Source: a virus
Lineage: Duplodnaviria > Caudoviricetes
Length of the DNA stretch: 36,992 nt
Virus record (IMG/VR): IMGVR_UViG_3300037424_000758
Span: 1-36,992 of that record
Direction: 5' to 3' (one strand)
The position numbers were made by a program, and so were the translations under genes. Numbering within the stretch: position 1 is the stretch's first letter; each line of letters starts with the position of its first letter. A model generated the notes under the pieces. That model did not search any database. It was not told the DNA's origin and saw only the letters and a list, made by a program, of their open reading frames with translations. Positions 1 through 21,174 of the stretch are shown piece by piece.

Positions 1-63
1 TAGCTCGAGCGCATCGCCGTGGTAGAGGGTCACCTGGTCGTCTTGGTAATATGGTCTTTGCAT
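1..63 (-). CDS. DNA methyltransferase (N6/N4 type), N-terminal fragment running off the window
   Basis: Reads MQRPYYQDDQVTLYHGDALEL, a typical start of phage DNA methylases; only 21 codons visible. Confidence 0.65.
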   Translation of the reverse strand, partial: MQRPYYQDDQVTLYHGDALEL

Positions 64-72
64 AAAGTTGTC

Positions 73-138
73 TGCCAACAATGCGCTCTAGCGGGACCGC
101 GCGAAAAGCCGCGCGGCCCCTAAGCTAGATCGTTCGGC
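73..138 (+). repeat. attC site 1
   Basis: TGCCAAC-AATGC-GCTCTAGC...CCTAAGC-TAGATC-GTTCGGC. Confidence 0.85.
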
Positions 139-458
139 ACCTCAAACATATCCACCGTCTGCGTGCAGCGCGGCGCAGGGATCGTCTCTCCTGCTGACAC
201 AAACGCGGTGCAACAAGGCTGCCCGTGCTTGTCGTATTGCCACTCGACCGCCTCGCCGCGAAATGACGCGCCGATGATTTCGCATTTCTCGTCATCGTCG
301 CAGTCGTCGAAGTCGCAGCCTTCGCGCATGGCTTTGTCCCGCGCGCAGTTGCAGCACCAGGCCTCAATGAAAATCTCGCCCTCGGTGCCGTTGCTTGGCT
401 CCCACTGTTCTCCGGCCTGTTCCTTTGTCCGGTCTGCGAGTTCTTGCGGGTAAATCAT
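120..458 (-). CDS. Cys-rich hypothetical phage protein (cassette)
   Basis: 112-aa ORF with GGAG RBS; stop codon lies inside attC1. Confidence 0.75.
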   Translation of the reverse strand: MIYPQELADRTKEQAGEQWEPSNGTEGEIFIEAWCCNCARDKAMREGCDFDDCDDDEKCEIIGASFRGEAVEWQYDKHGQPCCTAFVSAGETIPAPRCTQTVDMFEVPNDLA

Positions 459-483
459 GGTCGTCTCCTATGGTTGCGCCGGT

Positions 484-548
484 GCCGAACACATCATCCG
501 AGCGGGACCGCGCAAAAAGCGCGCGGCCCCTCAATTCAGCCGTTATGC
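484..548 (+). repeat. attC site 2
   Basis: GCCGAAC-ACATC-ATCCGAGC...CCTCAAT-TCAGCC-GTTATGC. Confidence 0.85.
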
Positions 549-763
549 CTCTTGTTCCAGCGTTCTCGCAGCAGGTCGGTAACGTCGTCCATCAGCGGGT
601 AAATCAAGCCGCTGGCCGCGCCGCATGCGCTGCTCGTGCATTGCACGCACTGAGCGCCGATGCTCGGCTCGTCGGTCTCGCCCTGGAGCGTGATGATTTC
701 CGCCTCGGCGCCGCAGAACGGGCACGGCTTAAGCCGGTCGCTGTCGTCAATCAGGTGGTCCAT
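536..763 (-). CDS. Lar-family restriction-alleviation-like Zn-finger protein (cassette)
   Basis: LKPCPFCG...CxxxxC...WNKR pattern; GGAGG RBS before ATG at 763. Confidence 0.7.
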   Translation of the reverse strand: MDHLIDDSDRLKPCPFCGAEAEIITLQGETDEPSIGAQCVQCTSSACGAASGLIYPLMDDVTDLLRERWNKRHNG

Positions 764-789
764 GTCATTCCTCCGTTTTTGGCGCCGAG

Positions 790-846
790 GCATAACCCGG
801 CGTTGGTTCGGACGCCCTGCGGGCGCCGCACAACTCTGCGTTAGCC
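790..846 (+). repeat. attC site 3
   Basis: GCATAAC-CCGGC-GTTGGTTC...GCACAAC-TCTGC-GTTAGCC. Confidence 0.8.
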
Positions 847-1077
847 ACGCCTCGGCTTGCGTGTCGTGAATTCATCCAAAACCCGGAATGCCTCTTCTGT
901 TCGCGGGTCAATCGTGTACTGGCGCACATGGCGCATTTCGTAATTAATGCTTGCCAACATCGCCGCCTCTCGAAGTTCGGACGGTGTGAATTGCGCTCTC
1001 TCAATAAAATTTTCCAGCATCAGCACAAGCTGGTGATACTCCGGGTCATTCATGTATTTTTCGCGTGGTGTTTTCAT
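841..1077 (-). CDS. Hypothetical phage protein (cassette)
   Basis: 78-aa ORF with AAGGA RBS; TAA stop is part of the attC3 core. Confidence 0.75.
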   Translation of the reverse strand: MKTPREKYMNDPEYHQLVLMLENFIERAQFTPSELREAAMLASINYEMRHVRQYTIDPRTEEAFRVLDEFTTRKPRRG

Positions 1078-1102
1078 CGTGCATCCTTTCGTGGTACGCC
1101 GT

Positions 1103-1166
1103 GGCTAACACGGCGTTCTAGCTGGACTGTCCGCAAGCGGCCAGCCCCTAAACTTTGTCGTTATGC
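1103..1166 (+). repeat. attC site 4
   Basis: GGCTAAC-ACGGC-GTTCTAGC...CCTAAAC-TTTGTC-GTTATGC. Confidence 0.85.
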
Positions 1167-1167
1167 G

Positions 1168-1554
1168 TCAATCGTCTTCAGCCGTTTCCAATTCGCCATC
1201 GGCGCGCACTGCCATGAGTTTCTGGCCGCAACATCCGTAGGTGGCAATCCACAGCGGCGTCAGTGCGCCCATCACATAGTCGCCGCCCTTGTAGCCGGTG
1301 AACACTTGGCCCATCGCAGCCTTGCAATCTGCCAGCAGTTCGGATGCAGGGCGGGTCCCTTCCTGCCGCTCAAAGTACAGGTCGCTGTAATAGCCTCGGT
1401 AGCTGTCAGGGTCGCGCAGGTTCGCCACTTGTGCGTCGGCTGGCATCGACTCCAGCGCGTCGATCAGTTTACCGAGCGTAAGTTGGGTTTCAGCCCGCTC
1501 CCGCTGCCATTGGGCGCTCATGCCGTTAATCATTGCTTGCAAATTCATTGTCAT
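1168..1554 (-). CDS. Hypothetical phage protein (cassette)
   Basis: 128-aa ORF with AGGAG RBS; SYRGYY and FTGYKGG motifs resemble phage hypotheticals. Confidence 0.8.
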   Translation of the reverse strand: MTMNLQAMINGMSAQWQRERAETQLTLGKLIDALESMPADAQVANLRDPDSYRGYYSDLYFERQEGTRPASELLADCKAAMGQVFTGYKGGDYVMGALTPLWIATYGCCGQKLMAVRADGELETAEDD

Positions 1555-1571
1555 CTCCTAGTTGAAAAGCC

Positions 1572-1660
1572 GCATAACACGGCGGTCAACAAGACCGCCC
1601 GCAAGCGTCGTCGTTTATCAATCGCCCGTTGTGGGGCGGCTTGTTACCTCGGCGTTGGGC
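1572..1660 (+). repeat. attC site 5
   Basis: GCATAAC-ACGGC-GGTCAACA...TGTTACC-TCGGC-GTTGGGC. Confidence 0.85.
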
Positions 1661-2211
1661 GCCTTCATGAACGCTACCCAGTGCGTCTTCTGCTGCTTGC
1701 CGCTCCGGTGTCCGATCAGCGGCTTCTCGGGCGTCAGCGCCAGTATTTGCGAAACCGGAATCTCGTCTTCGCACCACTTGAAAATCAACACCCCTTCCGG
1801 GCGCAGCACGCGGAAGCATTCGGCAAACCCCTTGCGCAGTTCCTCGCGCCACTCACCTTTCAGCGTGCCGTACTTCAGGCCCACCCATCCGGTCGCGCCG
1901 TTGCGCTCAAAGTGTGGCGGGTCAAACACCACCAGCGCGAAGGTGTCGCTCGGGAAAGGCAAATCCGTAAAGTCGGCTTGGTGGTCTGGGTCAATCACCA
2001 ATTCCCGCGAGCCGCCCTTGCTCGAAACATCGGGCAGTGTGTGCCGCTCTCGGCGCTTGTCCACAAATACGGCGCGGCTGTCCTGGCGGTCAAACCAAAA
2101 CATCCGGCTCCCGCAGCAGGCATCAAGCACTGGCGGCAAGTCGCCCAACACGGCGGTCAAGGCCGACCCGCCGCCAGCGGCTTCGTTTTCGTTCTGTTGT
2201 GTGTCTAGCAT
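1618..2211 (-). CDS. Phage class I SAM-dependent (probable DNA) methyltransferase (cassette)
   Basis: VLDACCGSRMFWFD motif I, VVFDPPH catalytic-like motif, LIFKW. Confidence 0.85.
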   Translation of the reverse strand: MLDTQQNENEAAGGGSALTAVLGDLPPVLDACCGSRMFWFDRQDSRAVFVDKRRERHTLPDVSSKGGSRELVIDPDHQADFTDLPFPSDTFALVVFDPPHFERNGATGWVGLKYGTLKGEWREELRKGFAECFRVLRPEGVLIFKWCEDEIPVSQILALTPEKPLIGHRSGKQQKTHWVAFMKAPNAEVTSRPTTGD

Positions 2212-2265
2212 TCGTTTCCCTTGTTCGGTTCGTTGGCGGCGGTCGGCTTACCTGATGCGTTATCC
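2143..2265 (+). repeat. attC site 6 (long; its loop contains the methyltransferase start codon)
   Basis: GCCCAAC-ACGGC-GGTCAAGG-CCGACC...GGTCG-GCTTACC-TGATGC-GTTATCC. Confidence 0.85.
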
Positions 2266-2732
2266 ATCAAAGCACCCACACGGAATTTCCGTGGTGTGCG
2301 AAAACAAATCAAGCTGCGCCTCGCTGTATTTCACAAGGTCAGCCCACGCGAAGGACCGGCCCAACCCCTTCACGCTGGTCAGTTCGGCGCGTGCTTCCAT
2401 CGCCAGCGCCCGCTGCAATAGCTCCGGGTGCGTGCGTCCCAATTCCAGAATCTCTCGCGGCTTGCTGGATGGACAGAAAAAGCAGGCGCTTTTCCCCGGC
2501 TGCGGCAGTCCTGCGCGGGCTATCGCCTCGATACATTCCTCGCGGCCCCAATCCCATTCAATCAACGGGTAGCGCGTTTCCTCATACTTCGCCCGGTGCG
2601 CTTCGCCTGCGTCAATGCCAACCCAAAACCACGGGGCGGTTATCCCATGCGCTTTGAGCCATCGTTTTTGAGGCCGCACCTTGTAGTGGTCGCTACAACT
2701 TTTGGCTCTACGGAATAACGTGTTGAAGTTGA

Positions 2733-2760
2733 TTGACGTGCTAGCCGCGACACGCAAAAT
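2733..2760 (+). promoter_or_regulatory. Putative sigma70 promoter for the passenger gene
   Basis: TTGACG-16bp-CAAAAT upstream of GAAGGA RBS and ATG 2784. Confidence 0.5.
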
Positions 2761-2783
2761 GCGGCACAACTGGAAGGACCAAG

Positions 2784-3161
2784 ATGAGTGACCAGGCAAT
2801 TGAGAAAGAGATTCAGGAAAAGGGTTTGACCGCGCCGCGCGTGACGCCGTCTGACATCGAGGAGAATATCGAGCGCGAGCATTACTTTACGGCTGCTGAC
2901 GGCGTGTATAGCGCGCGCCCAGGTCTTGTGGAATTTGCCCCGGGTGACCCGGAACTGCTGCTGACCTTCTGCGTGCTGGTGCTGTGCAACGGTTTCACTG
3001 TCACCGGAGAGTCGGCCTGCGCCAGCCCTGAGAACTTCGATGCAGCGCTCGGACGCAAAATTGCCCGAGCAAATGCTGTGCAGAAAATCTGGCCGCTGAT
3101 GGGCTACGCGTTGCGCAGCAAGCTGGCCACACATTACCCGCAGGAAATGAAGTCTGCGTAA
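2784..3161 (+). CDS. Gp49-family phage protein (N4 gp49 / Sf6 gp66-like)
   Basis: KGLTAPRVTP...LTFCVLVLxNGFTVTGESACASPENFDxxxGRKIA...IWPLMGY signature. Confidence 0.85.
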   Translation: MSDQAIEKEIQEKGLTAPRVTPSDIEENIEREHYFTAADGVYSARPGLVEFAPGDPELLLTFCVLVLCNGFTVTGESACASPENFDAALGRKIARANAVQKIWPLMGYALRSKLATHYPQEMKSA

Positions 3162-3169
3162 TGGCATTC

Positions 3170-3195
3170 CCGCCGCCGGCGTGTGCTGGCGGCGG
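3170..3195 (+). terminator. GC-rich hairpin after passenger gene
   Basis: CCGCCGCCGGC-GTGT-GCTGGCGGCGG stem-loop; no clear U-tract. Confidence 0.45.
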
Positions 3196-3491
3196 ATAAT
3201 CCGCAGAGCCCAACTTTTGAATCCATACGCGATCCCTGGCAGGGCGCTCCTCCGCAAGCAATCTTCTTCAAGCGTAACTTCTTCGCGCACCATAACGATT
3301 GGCGGAAAACCAACGCTCTCACACCACCTACTCATTTCTTCAACATCACGGTAAATTCCTGGCAACTCGCCGCCAGGATCGGCCATCAAGATAATGTCAG
3401 GCCGTTCCCCGCGTTCGCGCAGCCCGACCAAAACAGCTTTGCTATTGGTTCCGCCGCCGTAGCTTAAAACCGATGTCTGCGCCGGTTTGAT

Positions 3492-3569
3492 GGATAACAC
3501 GTCGGTCAAGGCCGCTCCTTTCAGTCGCTGGACGGCGCTGAAGCGCCGCCCCTTACCTGTTTGTTAGAG
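3492..3569 (+). repeat. attC site 7 (contains RBS and TTG start of the PAPS-reductase-like gene)
   Basis: GGATAAC-ACGTC-GGTCAAGG...CCTTACC-TGTTT-GTTAGAG. Confidence 0.85.
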
Positions 3570-3570
3570 A

Positions 3571-3792
3571 TCACCAGTAGCTCACGCTGTAGCCGCAATC
3601 GTCGCAACTTTCGCCAGCGGTGCAGTCCGTGTAATTCGTGCTTCCGCACTTCGGGCATGTTGGGCCAGTGTGCCTGGGCGTATATGTCACCGCTGGCGCA
3701 TTCTTCTCGGCCACGCACCACTTGCACAGGCCCTCGCGCACGGGCGCGTCGTCGTAAAAATTGTGTCCACATCCGGGGCATCGTGCAGCCAT
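3571..3792 (-). CDS. Small multi-CxxC zinc-ribbon protein (cassette)
   Basis: MAARCPGCG...CKWC...CPKCG...CDDCG; GAGGAG RBS supplied by the attC8 spacer. Confidence 0.7.
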   Translation of the reverse strand: MAARCPGCGHNFYDDAPVREGLCKWCVAEKNAPAVTYTPRHTGPTCPKCGSTNYTDCTAGESCDDCGYSVSYW

Positions 3793-3853
3793 CTCTAACT
3801 CCTCATTCAAGCGGGACCGGCTGAAAGCCGGTCCCTTAATTCAATCGTTGTGC
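3793..3853 (+). repeat. attC site 8
   Basis: CTCTAAC-TCCTC-ATTCAAGC...CCTTAAT-TCAATC-GTTGTGC, very close to canonical attC architecture. Confidence 0.9.
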
Positions 3854-4113
3854 GCCTTCTCACGCACCGTCACCACCACCTCAAGCCCAAGGTGCGCCGC
3901 GAGCTGCTCCAGGTGCTCTATGGTCGCGGGCTGGTTGCCCTTCTCGATATTTGTCACGCTGGTTCTGCCGAGTCCGAGAATTTCCCCAACTTCGCCCTGG
4001 TTCATTCCGGCCAGCTTTCGCAGTTCAAGCATCATCCCGGCAATCCCGGCCAGCGGGGCAGTCTGCTTTGGCTCTACCGCAGCCTTCGCCGCGTCTGTTA
4101 TCTCTGCTCTCAT
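3841..4113 (-). CDS. XRE-family HTH DNA-binding protein (cassette)
   Basis: LRKLAGMNQGEVGEILGLGRTSVTNIEKGNQ HTH motif. Confidence 0.85.
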   Translation of the reverse strand: MRAEITDAAKAAVEPKQTAPLAGIAGMMLELRKLAGMNQGEVGEILGLGRTSVTNIEKGNQPATIEHLEQLAAHLGLEVVVTVREKAHND

Positions 4114-4339
4114 TCAATCTCCAGTCGCACAACACGTTGGGCACCTCTGCGCCGTCCTGGTCGAACACTGCGGTCTTATGGCATGCAGTGCATACCTTCT
4201 CCACGGTCCACAGCATTTTTTGCATATTGCTAACGTCCTGTTCTTCGGATCGGCACGCCGGCGTCCTAACGATAGTTGCCATCCGTGGCCCATTCTCAAT
4301 GTAGTGGTGTGGCCCGCGTAAAATCGCGCATCTGTCCAT
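4025..4339 (-). CDS. Hypothetical protein (cassette; C-terminus reads through the deleted attC9)
   Basis: GGAG RBS before ATG 4339; frame ambiguous versus alternative ORF 4114-4299. Confidence 0.4.
   Translation of the reverse strand: MDRCAILRGPHHYIENGPRMATIVRTPACRSEEQDVSNMQKMLWTVEKVCTACHKTAVFDQDGAEVPNVLCDWRLNESRDNRRGEGCGRAKADCPAGRDCRDDA
4127..4142 (+). repeat. attC site 9 remnant (only the two core sites left)
   Basis: GCACAAC-AC-GTTGGGC; each core complements the core at the other end of its adjacent cassette. Confidence 0.7.
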
Positions 4340-4357
4340 TCTTCGCTCCAGTTCGTT

Positions 4358-4415
4358 GCCCAACAAGTTAATCGAGCGGGGTCGGCGCTTTAGCGACGGC
4401 CCCTCATTGTTATGA
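4358..4415 (+). repeat. attC site 10 (L'-R' spacer missing)
   Basis: GCCCAAC-AAGTT-AATCGAGC...CCTCATT-GTTATGA. Confidence 0.7.
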
Positions 4416-4613
4416 GCCGCGCCAGTGGATGTTCAGCCCCAGCAGCGTGGCGCGAATTTCCCGGTATTGCCGCTGCCAAAAGAACAGCCGGCGGTGCAGC
4501 GAAACTGAAACCTTCCAGCCTTCGCGGTAGGCCCAGCGTCCGCTCTCAAATTGAAACAGGGTTATCCGGCTGTCTCCGGTGGCGCGTGCGCCAATCCAAA
4601 ACACCAATCGCAT
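4410..4613 (-). CDS. Hypothetical protein (cassette)
   Basis: 67-aa ORF filling the inter-attC space; start could be 4643 inside attC11. Confidence 0.55.
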   Translation of the reverse strand: MRLVFWIGARATGDSRITLFQFESGRWAYREGWKVSVSLHRRLFFWQRQYREIRATLLGLNIHWRGS

Positions 4614-4634
4614 TCCGTTATCCAATAGTTCTGT

Positions 4635-4698
4635 GCCCAACAAATCATTCCAGCGGGACGGGCGAAAATCCGCCCGCCCCTGAATTCAGTCGTTGGGC
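4635..4698 (+). repeat. attC site 11
   Basis: GCCCAAC-AAATC-ATTCCAGC...CCTGAAT-TCAGTC-GTTGGGC. Confidence 0.9.
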
Positions 4699-4979
4699 AC
4701 CAGCCCCTTACCGCCACACTTATCGCAGCCTGAATCAAACCCGCAAGCGCACCCACGCGGGTTATCTGCCTCGCACCATTCTTCAAAGTCGGGGTCTTCG
4801 TTGCGGGCTTCAATTCGTGCGTCTTCGCACTCAGGGTGCATTTTCACAACCGTTGGCCCGTCGTCGCCAAAGTAACGCCAGCGGTGGTATGTGCCTCCGG
4901 TTTCAATTTTCTGGCCGCACCAAGAGCAGCGGTGGTCTTTTATGGCTCTCAGTGTTTCCGTCGTCGTTGCTGTTCCCAT
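4686..4979 (-). CDS. Cys-rich hypothetical phage protein (cassette)
   Basis: AIKDHRCSWCGQKI...KMHPEC motif; AGGAG RBS. Confidence 0.75.
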   Translation of the reverse strand: MGTATTTETLRAIKDHRCSWCGQKIETGGTYHRWRYFGDDGPTVVKMHPECEDARIEARNEDPDFEEWCEADNPRGCACGFDSGCDKCGGKGLVPND

Positions 4980-4981
4980 CG

Positions 4982-5548
4982 CTATCTCCTGTGCCCAACA
5001 AATCGCTCAAGGCGGGACGCTCCGCGAGCGTCAGCGGCCTTGCGTTGGTCTTTAATCGCGCACCTTAGCTGGGTCGTCGGAACCACACGCATAGGTGTGT
5101 CACCATGCAGCGCCAGCCGAACCCGGCGCAGAAAGTCTGGGCCGTCGTAAACACCCTCCTCCCATTCAGCCAATAATGAATGCAACTGTTCTTTCTCACG
5201 GTGCAGCCGCTCGATCTCACTTCCGGCGTCGGCCGGCGCCCGTGTGCCCAGCGCCGGAAAATCCTGCTCCGCCAGCCGCCGAAGCGCGCCGCCGCGCACG
5301 CGGGCCATGGCATAGTCGGCCGCCAGCAGCGCGCAGTGCACGTCGGCCGGCACCGGATAGGGGTGCGGCCAGCATTCGCGGTGCGCTTGGCTCAGATCCT
5401 GCGTGGCGGCCACCAGCACGCGCACGTCGGCCAGCAGCAGGTTGCGGCCGGAGTCCTGGCTTGGCTGCATGCTCGGCGTGTAGGTCACGCCGCCGGCGTC
5501 GTTCAGGATGAAATGCCTGCTGGCATTTATCGTGTTCTCTCCGTTCAT
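4982..5548 (-). CDS. Hypothetical protein reading through attC12
   Basis: 188-aa ORF, GGAGG RBS, coupled to upstream gene. Confidence 0.6.
   Translation of the reverse strand: MNGENTINASRHFILNDAGGVTYTPSMQPSQDSGRNLLLADVRVLVAATQDLSQAHRECWPHPYPVPADVHCALLAADYAMARVRGGALRRLAEQDFPALGTRAPADAGSEIERLHREKEQLHSLLAEWEEGVYDGPDFLRRVRLALHGDTPMRVVPTTQLRCAIKDQRKAADARGASRLERFVGHRR
4993..5082 (+). repeat. attC site 12 (GTC instead of GTT core)
   Basis: GCCCAAC-AAATC-GCTCAAGG...CCTTAGC-TGGGTC-GTCGGAA. Confidence 0.75.
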
Positions 5549-5751
5549 CGAAAACCTCCCGCGTCAAGCCAGTCGTGCTGCTGCACGGTTTCGTAGTCGT
5601 CCTGCATCCCTCGTACGGGGCAGACCATTATCGGGGCGTGCTGGCGGATTGTCTCGGCCACGTTGGTGTCGTGGGACGACACATAGCCGCGCCTGGTGTT
5701 GGTGATCGGCAGCGGGCACCAGGGTGCTGTGCCTGACGTCGGCGCGCTCAT
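5545..5751 (-). CDS. Hypothetical phage protein
   Basis: MSAPTSG... start chosen from ATGA overlap with upstream ORF. Confidence 0.55.
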   Translation of the reverse strand: MSAPTSGTAPWCPLPITNTRRGYVSSHDTNVAETIRQHAPIMVCPVRGMQDDYETVQQHDWLDAGGFR

Positions 5752-5918
5752 ACGCCCACCTGCGAAAACATCTGCCGGAACAGCTGCTCGGCCAGGATCA
5801 CAATTAGGCCGATTGCGCAGGCCAGCGCGATGAAGCGGTCGATGGGCCTGGTGTCGCCGTTGTGTTGCGGCCGGCCGGCGGCGCGCGCGAGCTGGTGGCG
5901 GGTGTGCAGGCCGTTCAT
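5748..5918 (-). CDS. Small membrane protein (56 aa, below ORF-track cutoff)
   Basis: MNGLHTRHQ...FIALACAIGLIVILAE; ATGA overlaps on both sides. Confidence 0.6.
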   Translation of the reverse strand: MNGLHTRHQLARAAGRPQHNGDTRPIDRFIALACAIGLIVILAEQLFRQMFSQVGV

Positions 5919-6154
5919 GGTCTGCCCCGCACATCGTTGATCGGCCTGGAATATATCCGTTTCGTGTAAAAGTACATCTTGTGCCCGTCGGTGACATCAG
6001 ACGAATTAGGCTGCAGCAGCGACAGGTAAGCCTTTCTCAGGCGGTCGTCATGGATTCGGTGGGCGAAGTTGATTCCCTCATACATCCAGGTGTCGCCGTG
6101 CCTGCGGACGAGATCGGCGATGCCGAGCGGGCGGGAGTAGGGTGCCGGGATCAT
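5915..6154 (-). CDS. Hypothetical phage protein
   Basis: 79-aa ORF with ATGA overlaps. Confidence 0.65.
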   Translation of the reverse strand: MIPAPYSRPLGIADLVRRHGDTWMYEGINFAHRIHDDRLRKAYLSLLQPNSSDVTDGHKMYFYTKRIYSRPINDVRGRP

Positions 6155-6387
6155 GCTGCCACATCCTCAAGCGTCGAGCGCGGCATGCGCATCTGGTAGG
6201 TCGCGCGGTTCAGCGCCTGTTGCGCGGCTTCGCGGTAGAGCTCGGCGCCCACGGGCAGGTTTTCTGCCTCCAGCACGCGGGCCACGCGGGTGAATTCCTC
6301 AAAGCGGTCATACCAGCACGATGAATTGTCCGGCGTGGCCATCCAGGTGCGCGCCAGGACTTGTTCGGTAAGCGTCATTGTCTGCAT
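6151..6387 (-). CDS. Hypothetical protein, first gene of the leftward early operon
   Basis: GGGAG RBS before MQTMTLTEQ. Confidence 0.65.
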   Translation of the reverse strand: MQTMTLTEQVLARTWMATPDNSSCWYDRFEEFTRVARVLEAENLPVGAELYREAAQQALNRATYQMRMPRSTLEDVAA

Positions 6388-6557
6388 GTCGACTCCCATT
6401 GGGTTGATTGGGCCGGTGCTCTCCCGGCTTGTCATGGCGCTTTCGTTCCAGAGGCATGCACTCTCGCCCCCTCACCATTACGGCCTGTCTCGTATTCAGG
6501 CTTCGTCGCTGTTCGGTCGGCCAGCGATGCCGGGGCCGTTTTGGGCGGCTTGGGAGG

Positions 6558-6599
6558 ATTATTCATCCATGTATTCTATCTGTCAATACATGTATGAAT
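6558..6599 (-). promoter_or_regulatory. pL-like promoter with two operators
   Basis: TTGACA(6586-6581)-17bp-AATAAT on the minus strand; 14-bp operators ATTCA-TCCA-TGTAT (6561) and ATACA-TGTA-TGAAT (6586). Confidence 0.75.
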
Positions 6600-6674
6600 A
6601 ATTCGTGAGAAAATAAAAACGCGCCCGGTGTGGGCGAGTCAATTGGTATGCTTATCCGACGGGAGGGGGACTTA

Positions 6675-7163
6675 ATGGATACGGAAAAACTGCGCAGGAT
6701 TGAATGGATCGACGAAGCCGGGCGGGAGAATCTTCGCTTCCGGCTGCAGAACGCGGAGACGCTGGCGCGCGAGGCGCATCAAACGCTGATGGTGCTGCTC
6801 GCGGGCATGGGCGCCGCGCTGGCCTACGTGGTGAGGGTGCTGGAGTACGGTCCGGTGACGGCGGTGGGCGCCGGCGTGGCGGCGGTCACGGTTTGGTTGA
6901 CGTTGTCGGCAGCGGTGCTGGTTGTGGAATGCATTCTCAGCCGCGACCTGCCAGTGCCGGCCAACGAGCCGGACAACCTATGGCAGGAGGGGTGGACTTT
7001 GGAGATGGACAGGATGGGCGAGCTGAAGGGGCTGCAGGCGCGCATCGACGCGACGCGCGTCCGCAACCACGCGGTGGCCGCGTGGCTCGACCGCGCGCGC
7101 CTGATGGCGGTCGCCAGTCCGGTGGTGTTTCTGCTTACCGCGCTGGCCTGGGTGGGACTTTAG
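6675..7163 (+). CDS. Three-TM membrane protein (immunity-region moron)
   Basis: Strong RBS; three hydrophobic segments. Confidence 0.75.
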   Translation: MDTEKLRRIEWIDEAGRENLRFRLQNAETLAREAHQTLMVLLAGMGAALAYVVRVLEYGPVTAVGAGVAAVTVWLTLSAAVLVVECILSRDLPVPANEPDNLWQEGWTLEMDRMGELKGLQARIDATRVRNHAVAAWLDRARLMAVASPVVFLLTALAWVGL

Positions 7164-7249
7164 CCTGTTCCCGGCGTTCTGGCTGCGGCGAGGGCTGCGG
7201 CGGGACGTTGGGCGGCAGGGCAGTGTGTTTGTCGCTCATGGCGGCGCGG

Positions 7250-7729
7250 TCAGTCGATTTCGGGGATGCCAAGCCAGATGCCATAATAATCTCCTCCGCC
7301 GCCGCGAATCATCGCTGGGACGGTGGCGACAGATGGAAGATTGCGTTGCTTCACTAATTTTCTGTATGCGCGAGCAGTGGCGCGCGCCAGGTATCCGACG
7401 GTTTGTCCGCCGATTTTTATGACGACTGCGTTGTTGTCGTGTGGGTTGTTGTCTTCCAACTCGATGGTGGCTTGGACGATATTGTGCCCAGGCGGCAGGG
7501 ATGTCGCGACAACATGAATGGCCGGTTGATAACTGGCTTCGCCGACGATTTCTTGGTCGAATTCGCCTTCTCCGCACAGCGTATGGTCATCGCTTACCGC
7601 CTCGTCGCGGTCCTTGTAGTATTTGATGGTAACGCGGTTTGATGGAGGTGCCGTATCGCTGGTGGCGAAAAGGTGAAACAGGTACCACCCAAGCCCGACA
7701 ATAACGAGCAGTGTGATCGCAACTTCCAT
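7250..7729 (-). CDS. Membrane-anchored HIRAN-domain-like protein
   Basis: N-terminal TM; IVGEASYQ...LEDNNPHDNNAVVIKIGGQTVGYL HIRAN motif. Confidence 0.8.
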   Translation of the reverse strand: MEVAITLLVIVGLGWYLFHLFATSDTAPPSNRVTIKYYKDRDEAVSDDHTLCGEGEFDQEIVGEASYQPAIHVVATSLPPGHNIVQATIELEDNNPHDNNAVVIKIGGQTVGYLARATARAYRKLVKQRNLPSVATVPAMIRGGGGDYYGIWLGIPEID

Positions 7730-7781
7730 TTTTGCTTTCTCCCCTGGTTATTCGAATTTCAGTTCAATCTTATTGATATTT

Positions 7782-8027
7782 TTATTCGTTCCCATCCCTT
7801 GCTCGGCTGGCTACGTCGTCCGATAGCATGCACACCACGCCCAGGGCAAATAGCGGGTTTCGGTAGGCTTCCCCGGCTGTGTCGACGATGCAGGCGCGGC
7901 GCTTCATGATCGCGCCGTAGGCGAGCCCAATCACTTCGCCGCGCTTGGCCTCGTGCAGCAGAAATTCCAGCGCCTCTACCGTGTCGTGCGAGATCGTGGC
8001 TCGCATCATGGTGAAGGGCGGCTTCAT
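7782..8027 (-). CDS. Hypothetical protein downstream of repressor
   Basis: 81-aa ORF, ATGA overlap with repressor stop. Confidence 0.7.
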   Translation of the reverse strand: MKPPFTMMRATISHDTVEALEFLLHEAKRGEVIGLAYGAIMKRRACIVDTAGEAYRNPLFALGVVCMLSDDVASRARDGNE

Positions 8028-8527
8028 TTCTCCTTCTCCTGCTTCCCAGTTTTTTTTGCGCGGTGGTGTTTAGGTGGACCGCCGGTGACGGCCGTGGCGG
8101 GGCGTTTAGGTGGCTGGCGTGCCTCCGTATGGCCAGTGTCAGATGGCGCGGCAGGTTCTGCGGTCGCCGACCTCGCATCGTCTGAGGCGAGGGTGCGCGC
8201 CATGCTGACAAGGGCTGCTTTCCTGTATGGAGCCATGGCCTGCATGGCCCTCAACACCGCGTCAGTATCGTCGTCGCATTCCAGCGGAGTTTCGCCGATG
8301 AGCTGCGAAACCGTCACCTCGAAATAAGCCGCCAGCACGCGCAGCGTCGGCAGCGTCGGGGTGTAGTCCGGCGTGTCAAGGATGCGCCAGATCGTCGGCT
8401 GATAGTTCTTTTTTTGTTCCTCCGGTGCAGGGTCGTCTTTCACCAGTTCAGCAGCGAGCTGGTGAGCATTGATGTTTTTGCGCGCCATCAGGGTGGTCAG
8501 CACGCTATTTATCGTGGGTTGTGCCAT
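8024..8527 (-). CDS. XRE-family prophage repressor (CI-like, no S24 peptidase domain)
   Basis: HTH with PTLPTLRVLAAYFEVTVSQLIGE; divergent from cro; start at 8527 or 8536. Confidence 0.8.
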   Translation of the reverse strand: MAQPTINSVLTTLMARKNINAHQLAAELVKDDPAPEEQKKNYQPTIWRILDTPDYTPTLPTLRVLAAYFEVTVSQLIGETPLECDDDTDAVLRAMQAMAPYRKAALVSMARTLASDDARSATAEPAAPSDTGHTEARQPPKRPATAVTGGPPKHHRAKKTGKQEKEK

Positions 8528-8563
8528 ACGCCGCATTGTCCCGATGACGCCGATTGGATGGAA

Positions 8564-8616
8564 ATACACGGGTGCATATTGCAAAGTATTCATCGATGTA
8601 TTATTCTCGTGTGCAT
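8564..8616 (+). promoter_or_regulatory. pR-like promoter with three operators
   Basis: TTGCAA(8579)-17bp-TATTCT; operators at 8564, 8588 and 8603 match the pL consensus ATWCA-N4-TGHAT (third has one mismatch). Confidence 0.75.
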
Positions 8617-8827
8617 GTTCACCAAAATGATCGAAGAACTCATCGAGGAAGGGCTGACCGAACAGCGAATCGGGCAGCTCGTCGGCGCGTCGCAGCCAAC
8701 CATCAACCGCATCAAGCGAACCAACCAAAATCCTAAATACGACCTCGGTGTGGCCATCGTGGCGCTGCATAAACAGGTGATCGAAGACAAGCCGATCAAC
8801 ACGCCAGAAAGCCAGGTCGCCGCATGA
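8615..8827 (+). CDS. Cro-like HTH regulator
   Basis: GLTEQRIGQLVGASQPTINRI HTH; 70 aa; divergent from repressor. Confidence 0.85.
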   Translation: MFTKMIEELIEEGLTEQRIGQLVGASQPTINRIKRTNQNPKYDLGVAIVALHKQVIEDKPINTPESQVAA

Positions 8828-8833
8828 ATCAAT

Positions 8834-8908
8834 CGCAAGGTGGAGCAGTGGCAGCTCGCCGGGTTCATACCCCGGAGGTCGCGGGTTCGACTCCCGCCCT
8901 TGCAACCA
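8834..8908 (+). tRNA. tRNA-Met(CAT), initiator type
   Basis: Cloverleaf with C1xA72 mismatch, GGG:CCC anticodon stem, GTTCGA T-loop and encoded CCA. Confidence 0.92.
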
Positions 8909-8914
8909 GCACCA

Positions 8915-8984
8915 CGCTGGCAGGCCGTTTGTCTGCCGCCTCCTCCGACCTTTCCCCGGCGCTGTCCTGGCCGGGGATTTTTTT
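8915..8984 (+). repeat. Structured repeat copy 1 (hairpin, CTCCTCC, terminator-like end)
   Basis: CGCTGGCAGGCCGTTTGTCTGCCG...GGCGCTGTCCTGGCCGGGGATTTTTTT, near-identical to 9230-9302. Confidence 0.8.
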
Positions 8985-8998
8985 GGGATAAAAAAACA

Positions 8999-9217
8999 AT
9001 GAGCCTCGAACGCAAGGACGTAAGACTGAAACTGGACCACGACAAGCACGCCGCGGCGAAGGTGATCGCCGAGACCGAGGGTAAGGATATTGCCGAGTGG
9101 ATCGAGGAAGTGATCGTCGATGTGATCAAAAAGCGTGTCCATTTGGCCAATGTAATCGTTTCCCGGCTGGAAGAAACCGGCGCCATCGGGACGTTCAGGG
9201 ATGAGTCGGGAAAATGA
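8999..9217 (+). CDS. Small putative ribbon-helix-helix DNA-binding protein
   Basis: MSLERKDVRLKL strand followed by two predicted helices. Confidence 0.65.
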   Translation: MSLERKDVRLKLDHDKHAAAKVIAETEGKDIAEWIEEVIVDVIKKRVHLANVIVSRLEETGAIGTFRDESGK

Positions 9218-9229
9218 CCATCGAGCATG

Positions 9230-9302
9230 CGCTGGCAGGCCGTTTGTCTGCCGTTGTCTCCTCCGAACTTGCCACGGCGCTGTCCCGGCCGGGGATTTTT
9301 TT
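9230..9302 (+). repeat. Structured repeat copy 2
   Basis: Direct repeat of 8915-8984. Confidence 0.8.
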
Positions 9303-9368
9303 CGCGTGTGTCCATGAGGGCATCGTAGGGGGTCCGGTTTCTGTGTTCAGCGTTTTTCGGAGGTTTTT

Positions 9369-9812
9369 ATGAACGTGAGTGATGCGGCATACGCGACTGT
9401 GCACGATTACCCGGGCGGGGCGATCAGCCTGGCCCCGCGCGTCGGGATGAATCCGACGGTGCTGAATTCGAAGGTGAATCAGAACACGACGACGCATCAC
9501 CTGACGATGCTGGAGGCGCAGCGGATCATGGGTGTGACGGGTGACCACCGAATCCTGCGCGCGCAGTGTGAGGATCTGGGCTACCTGCCACCGATTCCGC
9601 GTGTGGAGGCGGGGGTTTCTGACGCTGCGCTGCTGGAAACCTACACGCGCTTGATGAGCGAGCTGGGCGATTTCTCGGGGAAGTTCCACAAAGCGCTGTC
9701 TGACGGAAAGCTGACCTCGAAAGAGGTCGATGGGCTGCAGGTCGAGATGCTGGAATTCTTCGCCGCAGGCGAGGAGCTGCTGAACCGCGCCCGGCAGATT
9801 GCTGAGGGCTGA
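9369..9812 (+). CDS. Phage regulatory CII-family protein
   Basis: VHDYPGGAISLAPRVGM...LNSKVNQNTTTHHLT signature. Confidence 0.8.
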   Translation: MNVSDAAYATVHDYPGGAISLAPRVGMNPTVLNSKVNQNTTTHHLTMLEAQRIMGVTGDHRILRAQCEDLGYLPPIPRVEAGVSDAALLETYTRLMSELGDFSGKFHKALSDGKLTSKEVDGLQVEMLEFFAAGEELLNRARQIAEG

Positions 9813-11971: not shown

Positions 11972-12235
11972 ATGAGTACAAGTGCGGTGGTGGATGCGTG
12001 GGAGGCGGAGATTCCGCCGTTGCAGAAGCTGGTGTTGCTGGCACTGTCGGATGGGGTGAGCTGCGATGGCGGGCTTGGGTTCGACGTTGCCCCGCTGTGC
12101 ATCCAGTGCAGCATGCTTGAGGTGGTGTTGCGTCAGGTGCTCGACGGGTTGGCGGCGGATGGGTGGATTCAGTACCACATCGAATCCGGCCGGCTGATGG
12201 GCCGGCTTATCGGATATGGGGAGAAGGCAGCATGA
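11972..12235 (+). CDS. Small winged-helix protein resembling the initiator N-terminus
   Basis: LQKLVLLALSD resembles TQKLVLIVLAE of the next gene. Confidence 0.6.
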   Translation: MSTSAVVDAWEAEIPPLQKLVLLALSDGVSCDGGLGFDVAPLCIQCSMLEVVLRQVLDGLAADGWIQYHIESGRLMGRLIGYGEKAA

Positions 12236-12978
12236 GCGTCAATCTTGTTAAATGGGCGATCCGTCAGCAGCTGACGGCGACGCAGAAGCTTGTCCTGATC
12301 GTTCTGGCTGAGCATGGGGACAAGGATGGCAGGTGCTACCCTGGTCAGGAGCTGCTGGCACGCGAAACCAGTCTGACGGAGCGTGCGGTGCGGAAGGCGA
12401 TTCATGTGCTGCGCGACGTTGGGTTGATCGGGGTGCAGCGAAGAACATTCGTAAAGGGCGGGTCGACCTCGAATTACTACACGTTCAACATCGATGTGGA
12501 CGTCGAAACAATTCCACAGGAAGGCGTGGATGAAGTCGAATCCGGACAGGAACCACGTTCCTCTCCGGTCGAATCCGGACAGGAACCATGTTCCTCGTCC
12601 GGACAGGAACCATGTTCCTCACCCTATAAGGAAGAACCACCAGTATTAACCACCAGAAGCGCGCACGAGCGCGTGCGCGACGCTTCGGTGATCTTCGATA
12701 CCGAACGGAATGCATTCCAGGTTGCACCCGAAGTGCTCGACGGATGGGTGGAACGATACCGAAGGCTGGTCGACCCCGATCACTGGTCGCCAGACATGGC
12801 CGAGGAGTGGGTTCGTCACCAGGTGCGCAGCGCGGCGGTGTACCTGTCGAACCCGGCAAACCGGAAGAAATACCGCGACCTCAAGCGCTTCCTCGAAAAC
12901 CAGCTCAGCCGTGCCGGAGAACGCCTGATCGTGCCGCATGCACGCTACCCGCAACGCCAGCACAGGGCCACAGCATGA
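12232..12978 (+). CDS. Phage replication initiator (N-terminal HTH)
   Basis: CYPGQELLARETSLTERAVRKAIHVL HTH; internal iterons. Confidence 0.85.
   Translation: MSVNLVKWAIRQQLTATQKLVLIVLAEHGDKDGRCYPGQELLARETSLTERAVRKAIHVLRDVGLIGVQRRTFVKGGSTSNYYTFNIDVDVETIPQEGVDEVESGQEPRSSPVESGQEPCSSSGQEPCSSPYKEEPPVLTTRSAHERVRDASVIFDTERNAFQVAPEVLDGWVERYRRLVDPDHWSPDMAEEWVRHQVRSAAVYLSNPANRKKYRDLKRFLENQLSRAGERLIVPHARYPQRQHRATA
12541..12620 (+). repeat. Iterons, probable replication origin
   Basis: Three copies of TCCGGACAGGAACCAYGTTCCTC at 12541, 12574 and 12598 inside the initiator gene. Confidence 0.8.
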
Positions 12979-19757: not shown

Positions 19758-21170
19758 ATGGATGAGATAGGCCAGAACATGCTTTTAAGCGGCGAAAGAC
19801 AAGTCACCCCCAACATGAACGAGATCCGCGCCGATCACCGCGCCCGCTACCAATGGGCTGCCCAGCAGCTCAAAGGCGCGCGCGTGCTCGACCTCTGCTG
19901 CGGCATCGGCTATGGAAGCAAACTGCTGGCCGAGGCAGGATGCAAAGTCGAAGCGTGGGACATCGACGGCGAGAGCCTGGTCTACGCAAAGCGCCACCAC
20001 GGCCATGCGAACATCGAACATCTGCGCGGCGACCTTGGCAGCGCGGACGTCGCCTTCGACTTCAACGACGCCGCCGTCTGCTTCGAAGGCATCGAACATA
20101 TCGCCGATCCGCGCCCCATGCTGCGCGCCGCCGCTGCGGCTGCCCCCATCCTGCTGTGCAGCGTCCCCGACGAAGACGGCTTCCCCTACCGCCAGCCCGA
20201 CGGCAGCACCGTCGCCTTCCATCACCGCCACTACACCATCCACGAATTCATCGGCCTGCTCAACGAATGCGGATGGTCCGTCGCCCGCCTCGGCCGCCAG
20301 GAAGGCCCCGAGTCCGACGTCGAAGAACTGCGCGACGGCGCGGCCTACTACCCGGCCCGCACCATCGTCGCCTACTGCGTGCGCACCGCCGACCTGCATC
20401 AGATGGTCCGCGAGGATACCGAAGCCGCGCCCGAGCAGCATACGCCGGCCGCCCCCGGCCCCGAACACATCGCCATCCTCGGCCTCGGTCCCAGCCTCGA
20501 AGAATACGTCAACATCACCAAGCGCCTCGGCGGCAAACACGCCTTCTGCGACGAAGTCTGGGGCATCAACGCCGTCGGCGGCACCATCATGTGCGACCGC
20601 ATCTTCCATATGGACGACGTCCGCATCCAGGAGCGCCGCGCCGGCGCGCTGCCCGAGAGCAACATCGCCCGCATGATGGAATGGCTGCGCGTTCACCCCG
20701 GCCCCATCGTCACCAGCCGCGCCCACCCCGACTATCCAGGCCTGGTCGAATACCCGCTCGAGGACGTGCTCAACCACCTCGGCCACGACTATTTCAACAG
20801 CACCGCCGCCTATGCCGTCGCCTACGCCATTCACATCGGCGCCAAGCGCATCAGCCTGTTCGGCTGCGACTACACCTATCCAAACGCCCACGACGCCGAA
20901 AAGGGTCGCGCCTGCGTCGAATTCTGGCTCGGCGTCGCCGTCGCCCGTGGCATCAAAATCGCCATCGCCAAAAGCAGCAGCCTCATGGACGCCCTGCACA
21001 GCCGGCAGGAAAGGCTCTACGGCTACGACACCCTGAACATCGACCTCAAGGTTGACGAAGCCGGCCGCGCAAAACTCACGTTCACCGAGCGCGAGCAGAT
21101 ACCCACGGCAGAAGAGATCGAAGCGCGCTACGACCACAGTGCGCACCCGAACGCACTCGTGAAAGGCTGA
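19758..21170 (+). CDS. SAM-dependent methyltransferase fused to a Rossmann-like transferase-type domain
   Basis: HRARY...VLDLCCGIGYG...FEGIEH N-domain; IAILGLGPSL...VWGIN...ISLFGCDY C-domain. Confidence 0.75.
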   Translation: MDEIGQNMLLSGERQVTPNMNEIRADHRARYQWAAQQLKGARVLDLCCGIGYGSKLLAEAGCKVEAWDIDGESLVYAKRHHGHANIEHLRGDLGSADVAFDFNDAAVCFEGIEHIADPRPMLRAAAAAAPILLCSVPDEDGFPYRQPDGSTVAFHHRHYTIHEFIGLLNECGWSVARLGRQEGPESDVEELRDGAAYYPARTIVAYCVRTADLHQMVREDTEAAPEQHTPAAPGPEHIAILGLGPSLEEYVNITKRLGGKHAFCDEVWGINAVGGTIMCDRIFHMDDVRIQERRAGALPESNIARMMEWLRVHPGPIVTSRAHPDYPGLVEYPLEDVLNHLGHDYFNSTAAYAVAYAIHIGAKRISLFGCDYTYPNAHDAEKGRACVEFWLGVAVARGIKIAIAKSSSLMDALHSRQERLYGYDTLNIDLKVDEAGRAKLTFTEREQIPTAEEIEARYDHSAHPNALVKG

Positions 21171-21174
21171 TGAA

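What the first reader, a model, noticed from the sequence alone, without database searches (positions are those of the whole stretch)
120..5082. All cassette ORFs are antisense to attC polarity and borrow translation signals from the attC sites
Seen: attC top-strand polarity is on +, but every resident cassette ORF is on -, co-oriented with pL and opposite to usual integron cassettes. Stop codons fall in attC1, 2, 3, 5, 6, 8, 10 and 11, so several proteins carry a core-encoded Asn near the end (EVPNDLA, RHNG, KAHND, LVPND). The methyltransferase start (2211) lies in the loop of attC6. The RBS and TTG of the PAPS-reductase-like gene lie in attC7. The attC8 spacer supplies GAGGAG for the ATG at 3792. 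Inference: these are phage-adapted inverted cassettes that would be silent from a standard Pc promoter. Each gene's start stays with its own attC, while its C-terminus and stop depend on the neighbouring cassette.
Basis: partly seen in the sequence, partly recalled or inferred. Interest (0 to 1): 0.8.

Follow-up and report, generated by a model that had tools for sequence, protein, structure and literature searches.

The report
Phage gene cassettes built backwards
A lambda-like phage keeps eleven small accessory genes between integron-type recombination hairpins, with every resident gene on the strand opposite to that of bacterial cassettes, so they would be read from the phage's own early promoter and are likely swapped as a phage-specific gene pool, a layout that recurs in many other phage contigs.

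Summary
Largely confirmed. A model built from integrase-adjacent attC sites finds 10 full-length sites, all with the top strand on +. All 11 resident cassette genes lie on −. One + gene sits in a small transposon-like insert that splits the PAPS-reductase-like gene. Cassette-flanking cores match in 10 of 11 (shuffle mean 1.9). Motif-sampled attC sites give 73 antisense versus 10 sense in viral contigs, and 14 versus 64 in metagenomes.

'Borrowing' is overstated: 3 of 11 genes use attC start signals and 6 of 11 take their stop from beyond the crossover. All read-throughs use the core-Asn frame.

Related phages carry a full integron integrase just downstream of such arrays, facing the same way, mostly without a LexA box. 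Most likely this geometry lets only inverted cassettes be expressed from the phage early promoter. The window has no intI, and the array runs off the contig. Sense-oriented phage arrays also exist. Expression is untested. Ten literature searches found no report of this layout, but this scan has noted it before on other DNA.

The parts
1..63 (-). 5' end of a further cassette gene (DNA methyltransferase), cut by the contig end; the array continues left
   Evidence: phrog_67 E 3e-4 on 20 aa; a contig of run X1, possibly the source run, extends 1,530 nt left with attC-like pieces
73..138 (+). attC1, top strand +; holds the stop of gene A
   Evidence: 37.8 bits
120..458 (-). gene A, 112 aa, unknown phage family; ends ...VPNDLA, 13 nt taken from attC1
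   Evidence: phrog_13210 and phrog_6074
484..548 (+). attC2
   Evidence: 31.8 bits
536..763 (-). gene B, Lar-like restriction alleviation protein; ends ...RHNG, stop in the attC2 spacer
   Evidence: PF14354, phrog_599
790..846 (+). attC3
   Evidence: 32.7 bits
841..1077 (-). gene C, 78 aa, no family hit; TAA in its own half of the core
1103..1166 (+). attC4
   Evidence: 37.4 bits
1168..1548 (-). gene D, phrog_12889; own RBS and own stop; homologues occur with other attC sites and with none
1572..1660 (+). attC5 (89 nt); codes the 11-residue tail and stop of gene E
   Evidence: 43.3 bits
1618..2211 (-). gene E, DNA methyltransferase; inferred start in the loop of its own attC6; 94% identical homologue in phage integron L001
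   Evidence: phrog_954 E 5e-70
2143..2265 (+). attC6 (123 nt, long loop carrying ATG 2211)
   Evidence: 47.2 bits; folds
2260..3509 (-). gene F, PAPS-reductase-like, split by an insert (halves about 2260-2700 and 3213-3509); RBS and TTG in attC7; TAA in its own core half
   Evidence: phrog_424 on both halves; intact homologues L418 and L419
2704..3210 (+). transposon-like insert with terminal inverted repeats and an 8-bp target duplication; carries a + strand Phage_gp49_66 gene (2784-3161) and a promoter-like site (2733-2760)
3492..3569 (+). attC7; same family as attC sites in Thauera and Propionivibrio integrons
   Evidence: 26.9 bits; alignment
3571..3792 (-). gene G, 73 aa, four CxxC motifs; GAGGAG from the attC8 spacer; no homologue in the loci held
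3793..3853 (+). attC8; stop of H and RBS of G on opposite sides of the spacer region
   Evidence: 31.8 bits
3841..4113 (-). gene H, helix-turn-helix protein; ends ...KAHND
   Evidence: PF01381
4127..4142 (+). stub site 9: two cores 2 nt apart, attC body missing (a deletion or a Delta-attI-type hybrid)
   Evidence: sequence; attI sites with the same spacer in L112 and L130
4025..4339 (-). gene I; reads 36 codons past the core Asn into gene H because the attC body is missing
   Evidence: homologue P0015 is 69 aa and ends two residues after the Asn
4358..4415 (+). attC10, degenerate (L'-R' spacer lost)
   Evidence: 11.7 bits; sequence
4410..4613 (-). gene J, 67 aa; TAA in its own core half; the only cassette with mismatched cores
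   Evidence: 13 homologues
4635..4698 (+). attC11
   Evidence: 46.6 bits
4686..4979 (-). gene K, phrog_7314; ends ...LVPND
4993..5082 (+). attC12, last site on the top strand, core mutated to GTC; crossed by the 188-aa ORF 4982-5548
   Evidence: 28.8 bits
6558..6602 (-). best promoter-like site of the region, facing the array, inside an 18-bp inverted repeat (operator-like)
   Evidence: 11 of 12 consensus; inverted repeat I13

Best explanation
The region is an array of integron-type gene cassettes in the leftward early region of a lambda-like phage; its genes lie antisense to their attC sites, would be transcribed from the phage's leftward promoter rather than from an integron promoter, and are likely excised and reordered by an integron integrase. 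Shown: the attC sites and their polarity, the gene strands, matching cassette cores, homologous cassettes with other neighbours, and complete integrons of this layout in other phage contigs. Inferred cause of the inversion: in those phages intI sits at the end of the early operon, facing downstream, with attI just before it. Cassettes accumulate with the top strand pointing away from intI, that is against the transcript, so only cassettes with an antisense gene are expressed and kept. Each attC body then travels with the 5' end of its gene. A minority of genes reuse or evolve a ribosome-binding site and start in it, and genes whose core AAC is in frame take a short tail and stop from whichever site follows. 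The integrase for this array is inferred to lie beyond the contig's left end or to act in trans from the host or another phage.
For: Polarity; controls. Cores complementary across 10 of 11 cassettes but in 1 of 10 hairpins, and across 50 of 68 other phage cassettes (shuffle mean 4.3). DNA similarity to homologous cassettes ends within 8 nt of the 3' crossover in 8 of 10 alignments of E, F and D; the other 2 continue across a similar neighbouring attC. F keeps its own attC arm in L418. Motif-sampled attC sites: viral 73 antisense, 10 sense, 24 unclear; metagenome 14, 64, 38 (Fisher 2e-20). Bacterial intI loci: 48 sense, 4 antisense, 4 unclear of 56. L001, L184 and L130 carry integrases above the TIGR02249 cut-off among phage early genes, and L001 holds a 94% identical copy of cassette E. 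At viral intI loci, 73 of 81 cassettes are antisense; a LexA-like box is present in 1 of 37 against 8 of 12 comparators; 23 viral integrases form one branch (95/95); and 23 of 25 share an attI-like motif. The best promoter-like site faces the array.
Against: No intI or phage-type attI motif lies in the window. Sense-oriented arrays exist in phages: L222 carries a sense cassette of a gene family that is antisense elsewhere, TJE1 is sense, and L527 has 2 sense cassettes. The same gene family occurs with different own attC sites and with none, unlike resistance cassettes (PMC12901181, Introduction). Several sites are decayed (stub 9, attC10, attC12) and F is interrupted, so parts of the array may be inactive. 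Strand calls outside the window rest on my composition score. The tree has only 11 non-viral rows and needs 3 changes of the viral label. The insert has its own + strand promoter-like site.
Confidence: 0.75

Rival explanations
1. The attC sites arrived as gene-less or solitary units at GTT sites between existing phage genes. Gene exchange now runs mainly through the phage's own homologous recombination between the repeats, with integrase playing little part.
For: No intI in the window. Genes D and E occur naked in many phages and with different attC sites in others. L001's methyltransferase shares only the inner arm of window attC6 and has a new attC further upstream. IntI inserts attC substrates at GWT genome sites in either orientation (10.1101/2022.09.11.507474, passages).
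Against: The 7-bp cores match across cassettes but not within hairpins, which is what crossover at G|TT produces. Similarity ends at the core. Complete phage integrons carry the same cassette.
Confidence: 0.12
2. The inversion is itself the selected trait rather than a by-product of operon geometry. It silences host cassettes, many of them anti-phage, that enter the array, and it places the recombining bottom strand on the lagging-strand template and the non-template strand, raising shuffling during lytic growth.
For: Many chromosomal cassettes are anti-phage (10.1101/2024.07.02.601686, abstract). A bottom strand on the lagging template folds and recombines more (PMC5371416, section 6). With an origin to the right, near the replication gene at 12163-12978 (position inferred), the leftward fork would put the - strand on the lagging template. 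Identified cargo is methyltransferase, Lar-like and PAPS-reductase-like.
Against: Sense-oriented phage arrays exist. No host-type sense cassette was seen inside the window array to show filtering. Geometry alone accounts for the bias. This reading is compatible with the best explanation and differs only in cause.
Confidence: 0.09
3. The array is a fragment of a host chromosomal integron captured by the phage, and its genes are ordinary cassettes with their own promoters.
For: The attC sites belong to families seen in betaproteobacterial integrons. Phages have captured chromosomal integron segments (PMC9892861, section 3.1).
Against: Bacterial arrays are 48 of 56 sense. The cargo matches phage families and its homologues lie in phage early regions. 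No promoter-like site lies on - inside the cassettes, and gaps of 14-27 nt leave no room for one.
Confidence: 0.04

Closest known systems
Clusters of attC sites lacking an integrase (CALINs) and integrons in phage genomes (Qi et al. 2023, PMC9892861)
   Same: attC arrays in phage DNA without a neighbouring intI; DNA methyltransferase cargo; sites of the kind shown there to be IntI1 substrates.
   Different: The paper describes TJE1 and PH101 as typically oriented and holds no occurrence of 'antisense' or 'opposite'; TJE1 is sense by my model. Here 11 of 11 resident genes are antisense, and related phages carry their own intI and attI in the early operon.
Class 1 and betaproteobacterial chromosomal integrons (intI, attI, Pc, cassette array)
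   Same: attC anatomy and sequence families; cores complementary across cassettes; stops at or next to the core (PMC11511950 passage).
   Different: Gene strand is reversed, so the attC body sits at the gene's 5' end. Read-through past the crossover is commoner (20 of 57 against 6 of 70). In related phages intI faces the same way as the cassette genes and mostly lacks a LexA-like box.
Inverted-integrase integrons (certain Treponema; Cury et al. 2016, PMC4889954)
   Same: intI is on the same strand as the cassette genes.
   Different: [quoted passage not shown] Here intI and attC keep the regular opposite orientation, and it is the cassette genes that are flipped.
attG insertion and single attC sites (Loot et al., 10.1101/2022.09.11.507474)
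   Same: Gives a route for attC substrates to enter phage DNA at GWT sites and be expressed from a resident promoter.
   Different: No orientation bias was found in those assays; it does not describe arrays of antisense cassettes.
Delta-attI-type cassettes (PMC12901181)
   Same: Stub site 4127-4142 has an inverse core followed by a short spacer and GTT, with the spacer seen in attI sites of L112 and L130.
   Different: Described for attI1 and attI2 in resistance arrays; a plain deletion of the attC body explains the stub equally well.

Membership tests
attC site | R''-L''...L'-R' inverted boxes, RYYYAAC and GTTRRRY cores, extrahelical base in L'', 57-141 bp | tested here: met
   10 of 12 sites are full-length model matches with E<1e-3; anatomy; attC10 and stub 9 are decayed
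attC site | Bottom strand is the recombining hairpin | not testable with these tools
   The - strand folds more stably as DNA in 8 of 11 sites, but attC6 alone is no more stable than shuffles (z -0.57); needs an attC x attI assay
integron gene cassette | One ORF between complementary core sites, exchanged at G|TT | tested here: met
   10 of 11 core pairs complementary; homology ends at the cores
integron gene cassette (canonical) | Gene on the attC top strand, attC at the gene's 3' end | tested here: not met
   11 of 11 resident genes antisense
CALIN | Cluster of attC sites with no intI nearby | tested here: inconclusive
   No intI in the 36,992-nt contig, but the array runs off the end where related phages keep intI
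complete integron | intI gene and attI site next to the array | tested here: inconclusive
   Absent from the window; present in related phage contigs
complete integron | Pc promoter reading the cassettes from attI, and LexA-controlled intI | tested here: not met
   Genes face towards the attI end; LexA-like box in 1 of 37 viral intI loci
inverted-integrase integron | [quoted passage not shown] | tested here: not met
   At viral intI loci 122 of 127 attC matches are on the strand opposite intI
non-autonomous insertion element (insert 2704-3210; IS1595-like label recalled, from no call) | Terminal inverted repeats and target-site duplication | tested here: met
   8-bp duplication and 17-nt ends matching at 14 positions; single empty site in L419
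non-autonomous insertion element (insert 2704-3210; IS1595-like label recalled, from no call) | Assignment to a transposase family | not tested
   No transposase in the insert; no IS library available

The most novel reading that the evidence does not exclude
Temperate phages run their own branch of the integron system: a phage clade of integrases with a distinct attI, expressed from the early operon without LexA control, and a pool of back-to-front cassettes that are silent in host integrons while host cassettes are silent in the phage. Because the same phage genes occur naked, inverted and occasionally sense, always with the core laid on the stop, just past it or on an in-frame Asn codon, these arrays record how cassettes are made from ordinary genes.
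Probability: 0.5. Interest if true: 0.88.

Novelty: new variant of a known kind. Interest (0 to 1): 0.72.

Why it matters
Integron cassettes are defined with the gene on the attC top strand, and chromosomal arrays are now seen as stores of anti-phage genes. A reversed cassette pool in phages, carrying methyltransferase and restriction-alleviation genes and served by phage-borne integrases, would mean the same recombination system also works on the phage side. The series from naked gene to cassette, and the strict reading-frame pattern at the core, give material for the open question of how cassettes arise. The layout can be tested at once with standard attC x attI and reporter assays.

Tried and rejected
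No RNA holder was listed, so expression was not examined. Laying contigs of runs X1-X4 showed other samples' matches starting at or next to core positions, but joints had short sides and were not used as evidence of excision. Laying X1 on L001's intI could not show whether this phage has its own intI. Rfam gave no attC family. blastn of attC8 against plasmids found nothing. The gp49 protein has no solved-structure match. The 188-aa ORF that crosses attC12 has no relative in viral contigs, so no empty site for the array could be seen. A scan with one phage integrase alone found only itself and distant recombinases; an alignment was needed. Rctr41k gave only weak sense matches (18-21 bits) and was not counted.

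Rejected: that in-frame stops in attC are a phage adaptation (they are as frequent in bacterial attC); that all C-termini depend on the neighbour; that all phage arrays are inverted; that top-strand insertion explains the layout (by reasoning, it would flip gene and attC together). The window core count (9 of 11) had an off-by-one position at attC7 and was corrected.
Full report
Context. The window is the whole contig. It is a lambda-like phage: CII, SSB, DnaB, terminase, portal and capsid genes lie on + to the right. Left of about 6.6 kb the genes run on -. The best promoter-like site in 1-9500 is on - at 6586-6558 (11 of 12 consensus; 4 sites found against 3.0 expected in shuffles), inside an 18-bp inverted repeat. 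The array occupies 1-5082 and is cut by the contig end in a further methyltransferase gene. A contig of run X1, possibly the source run, continues 1,530 nt to the left with attC-like pieces.

Polarity. I collected attC sites next to integron integrases, aligned 40 of them (one came from viral locus L130) and built model R1. The sites were picked by a heuristic written with top-strand features, so polarity was checked independently. In 57 integrase loci, 127 of 132 matches lie on the strand opposite intI. R388 sites are sense to their annotated genes, and TJE1 has 3 of 3 sites sense to GenBank genes. In the window, R1 finds 10 full-length sites with E<1e-3, all on +, a weak eleventh (attC10) on +, and none on - in the array.

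Genes. Eleven resident genes (A-K) lie on -. Seven have family hits: two unknown phage families plus A's, a Lar-like protein, a DNA methyltransferase, a PAPS-reductase-like protein and an HTH protein. J has 13 homologues of 66-74 aa and I has one. C and G have RBS and ORF support only. It lies in a 507-bp insert with terminal inverted repeats and an 8-bp target duplication that splits gene F; intact homologues show the single empty site.

Cassettes are real recombination units. The cores that flank each gene are exactly complementary in 10 of 11 cassettes (shuffle mean 1.9, 0 of 100,000 reaching 10), while the two cores of the same hairpin match in 1 of 10. Other phage arrays give 50 of 68 (shuffle mean 4.3) and bacterial ones 46 of 55. 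DNA similarity to homologous cassettes ends within 8 nt of the 3' crossover in 8 of 10 alignments; in the other 2 it continues over a similar neighbouring attC. Homologue L418 of F keeps the attC7-like arm with its RBS and TTG but has different neighbours. Against a fixed gene-attC pairing, D and E homologues also occur with other attC sites and with none.

Borrowed signals. Stops: A, B, E, H and K cross the G|TT crossover and stop 7-37 nt into the neighbour. C, F and J use the TAA on their own side. D and G stop one base before the core. I crosses the stub at 4127-4142 and runs 36 codons into H, whereas its homologue ends two residues after the Asn. Methyltransferase tails differ with the neighbour in the window, L001 and L007, and are absent where TAA lies in the core. 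Of 57 well-covered phage cassettes elsewhere, 18 stop before the core, 19 at the core TAA and 20 read through, all 20 in the Asn frame. The same holds for 11 of 11 read-throughs into phage attI sites. Taking the 36 read-throughs with a true AAC core (one ACC core left out), 22.1 are expected in that frame from codon use (P about 1e-7.8, overstated because families are related). Canonical cassettes read through less often (6 of 70 against 20 of 57; p 3e-4) but also mostly in that frame (5 of 6). In-frame stops are as common in bacterial bottom strands (56 of 71) as in phage ones (71 of 96), and attC overlap with stop codons is usual in resistance cassettes (PMC11511950, passage). So the stops are reuse, not adaptation.

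Starts: only E, F and G use attC signals; the other 8 start 14-27 nt outside the core. E's RBS is weak and its start is inferred from the lack of alternatives and from homologues L003 and L007. F's motif exists in bacterial attC sites of the same family. A strong RBS and start, open 150 nt into the cassette, is found in 20 of 242 phage attC against 1 of 156 sense-array attC (p 4e-4). Of the 28 phage sites with a start open to the end of the attC, 24 use ATG, against 0 of 6 in the sense set. That part does look phage-specific.

How general. Arrays found through homologues of E and D, plus L134, give 69 antisense, 2 unclear and 0 sense of 71; bacterial intI loci give 48 sense, 4 antisense and 4 unclear of 56. 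Viral: 133 sites, 22 not confirmed, 4 too near an end, then 73 antisense, 10 sense and 24 unclear. Metagenome: 175 sites, 41 not confirmed, 18 too near an end, then 64 sense, 14 antisense and 38 unclear. Strand calls use my amino-acid composition plus RBS score. Counter-examples are real: L222 carries phage-type genes sense to attC, as do TJE1 and L527.

The platform in related phages. L001, L184 and L130 encode integrases above the TIGR02249 cut-off, and L148 a truncated one, among RecE-like, excisionase, anti-repressor or Mu transposition genes. L001 holds a 94% identical copy of cassette E. An alignment-based scan returned 66 viral loci, four of them repeats of these. There 122 of 127 attC matches lie opposite intI, and 73 of 81 cassettes are antisense, so they face intI. 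A LexA-like box is present in 1 of 37 viral loci examined against 8 of 12 comparators. Twenty-three viral integrases form one branch (95/95) in a 46-row tree whose 11 non-viral rows are a narrow sample, two of them metagenome contigs of unknown origin. An attI-like motif precedes intI in 23 of 25 loci examined. The window has neither intI nor that motif, but both would lie beyond its left end.

Mechanism. Shown: sites, strands, core matching, neighbour exchange and the related complete integrons. Inferred: transcription from the leftward promoter through the array; integrase-driven exchange; and the cause of inversion. With intI at the end of the early operon facing downstream, cassettes enter with the top strand against the transcript, so only antisense-gene cassettes are expressed. 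Bottom-strand selectivity fixes insertion orientation (10.1101/2022.09.11.507474, passages), so such cassettes would be silent behind Pc and host cassettes would be silent here. Whether that filtering, or faster shuffling with the bottom strand on the lagging template (PMC5371416, section 6), is itself selected cannot be told.

What is known. Papers seen: PMC9892861 (parts 1-4 of 7 of the text, passages and supplement passages); 10.1101/2022.09.11.507474 (passages; bioRxiv supplements not available); PMC12901181 (abstract and first part of the Introduction); PMC5371416 (abstract and section 6); 10.1101/2024.07.02.601686 (abstract); PMC8946536, PMC11511950, PMC13323075, PMC13108822 and PMC4889954 (passages). 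Ten searches returned no paper describing antisense cassette arrays in phages. The library lacks most subscription papers, and the figures and annotation file of PMC9892861 were not seen. This scan's own notes report the same layout in at least 15 other genomes; they were leads, not evidence.

Verdict. The inversion is real, strong and widespread in phage contigs. The translation-signal claim holds for a minority of genes. This is a new variant of the integron cassette system; interest 0.72.

Noticed in passing
window 2704-3210: A 507-bp element with terminal inverted repeats and an 8-bp target duplication carries a + strand Phage_gp49_66 gene and a promoter-like site. Two Pseudomonas phage records label DNA homologues of the gene 'anti-CRISPR protein'; plasmid records call them Gp49 family. 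It looks like a passenger-carrying mini-transposon.
   Followed up: partly
L516:4488-4624: 140 nt at 74% identity to the 5' part of that insert, inside another phage's cassette array.
   Followed up: no
window 4127-4142: Stub site with two cores 2 nt apart; its spacer equals that of attI sites in L112 and L130, so it may be an attI hybrid rather than a deletion.
   Followed up: partly
window 4358-4415 and 4635-4641: attC10 has lost its L'-R' spacer, and cassette J is the only one with mismatched cores.
   Followed up: no
window 4982-5548: A 188-aa ORF runs through the whole of attC12, whose core is GTC, and stops on the RBS of gene K; no relative was found.
   Followed up: partly
window 8834-8905: A tRNA gene on + between the cro-like and CII genes.
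   Followed up: no
window 19758-22872: A methyltransferase-domain gene and a GDSL lipase-domain gene follow the capsid gene in the late region.
   Followed up: no
L130:8465-10954: A Mu-like transposable phage carries a complete integron with inverted cassettes in its early region, with attI only about 40 nt from the intI start.
   Followed up: partly
L006:72-2587 and 5817-6533: Two arrays of opposite polarity in one phage contig, both with antisense genes.
   Followed up: partly
L027:3439-4030: Two near-identical attC-like sites each hold GGAGG and an overlapping stop/start (GTGA), which would couple translation across the junction.
   Followed up: no
L222:1085-4700: A phage array with genes sense to attC, including a gene family that is antisense in L010 and L164.
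   Followed up: partly
L493-L532, upstream of intI: In several phage attI sites the first in-frame stop for the adjoining gene falls 28-31 nt past the core, in the Asn frame (9 of 11 read-throughs).
   Followed up: partly
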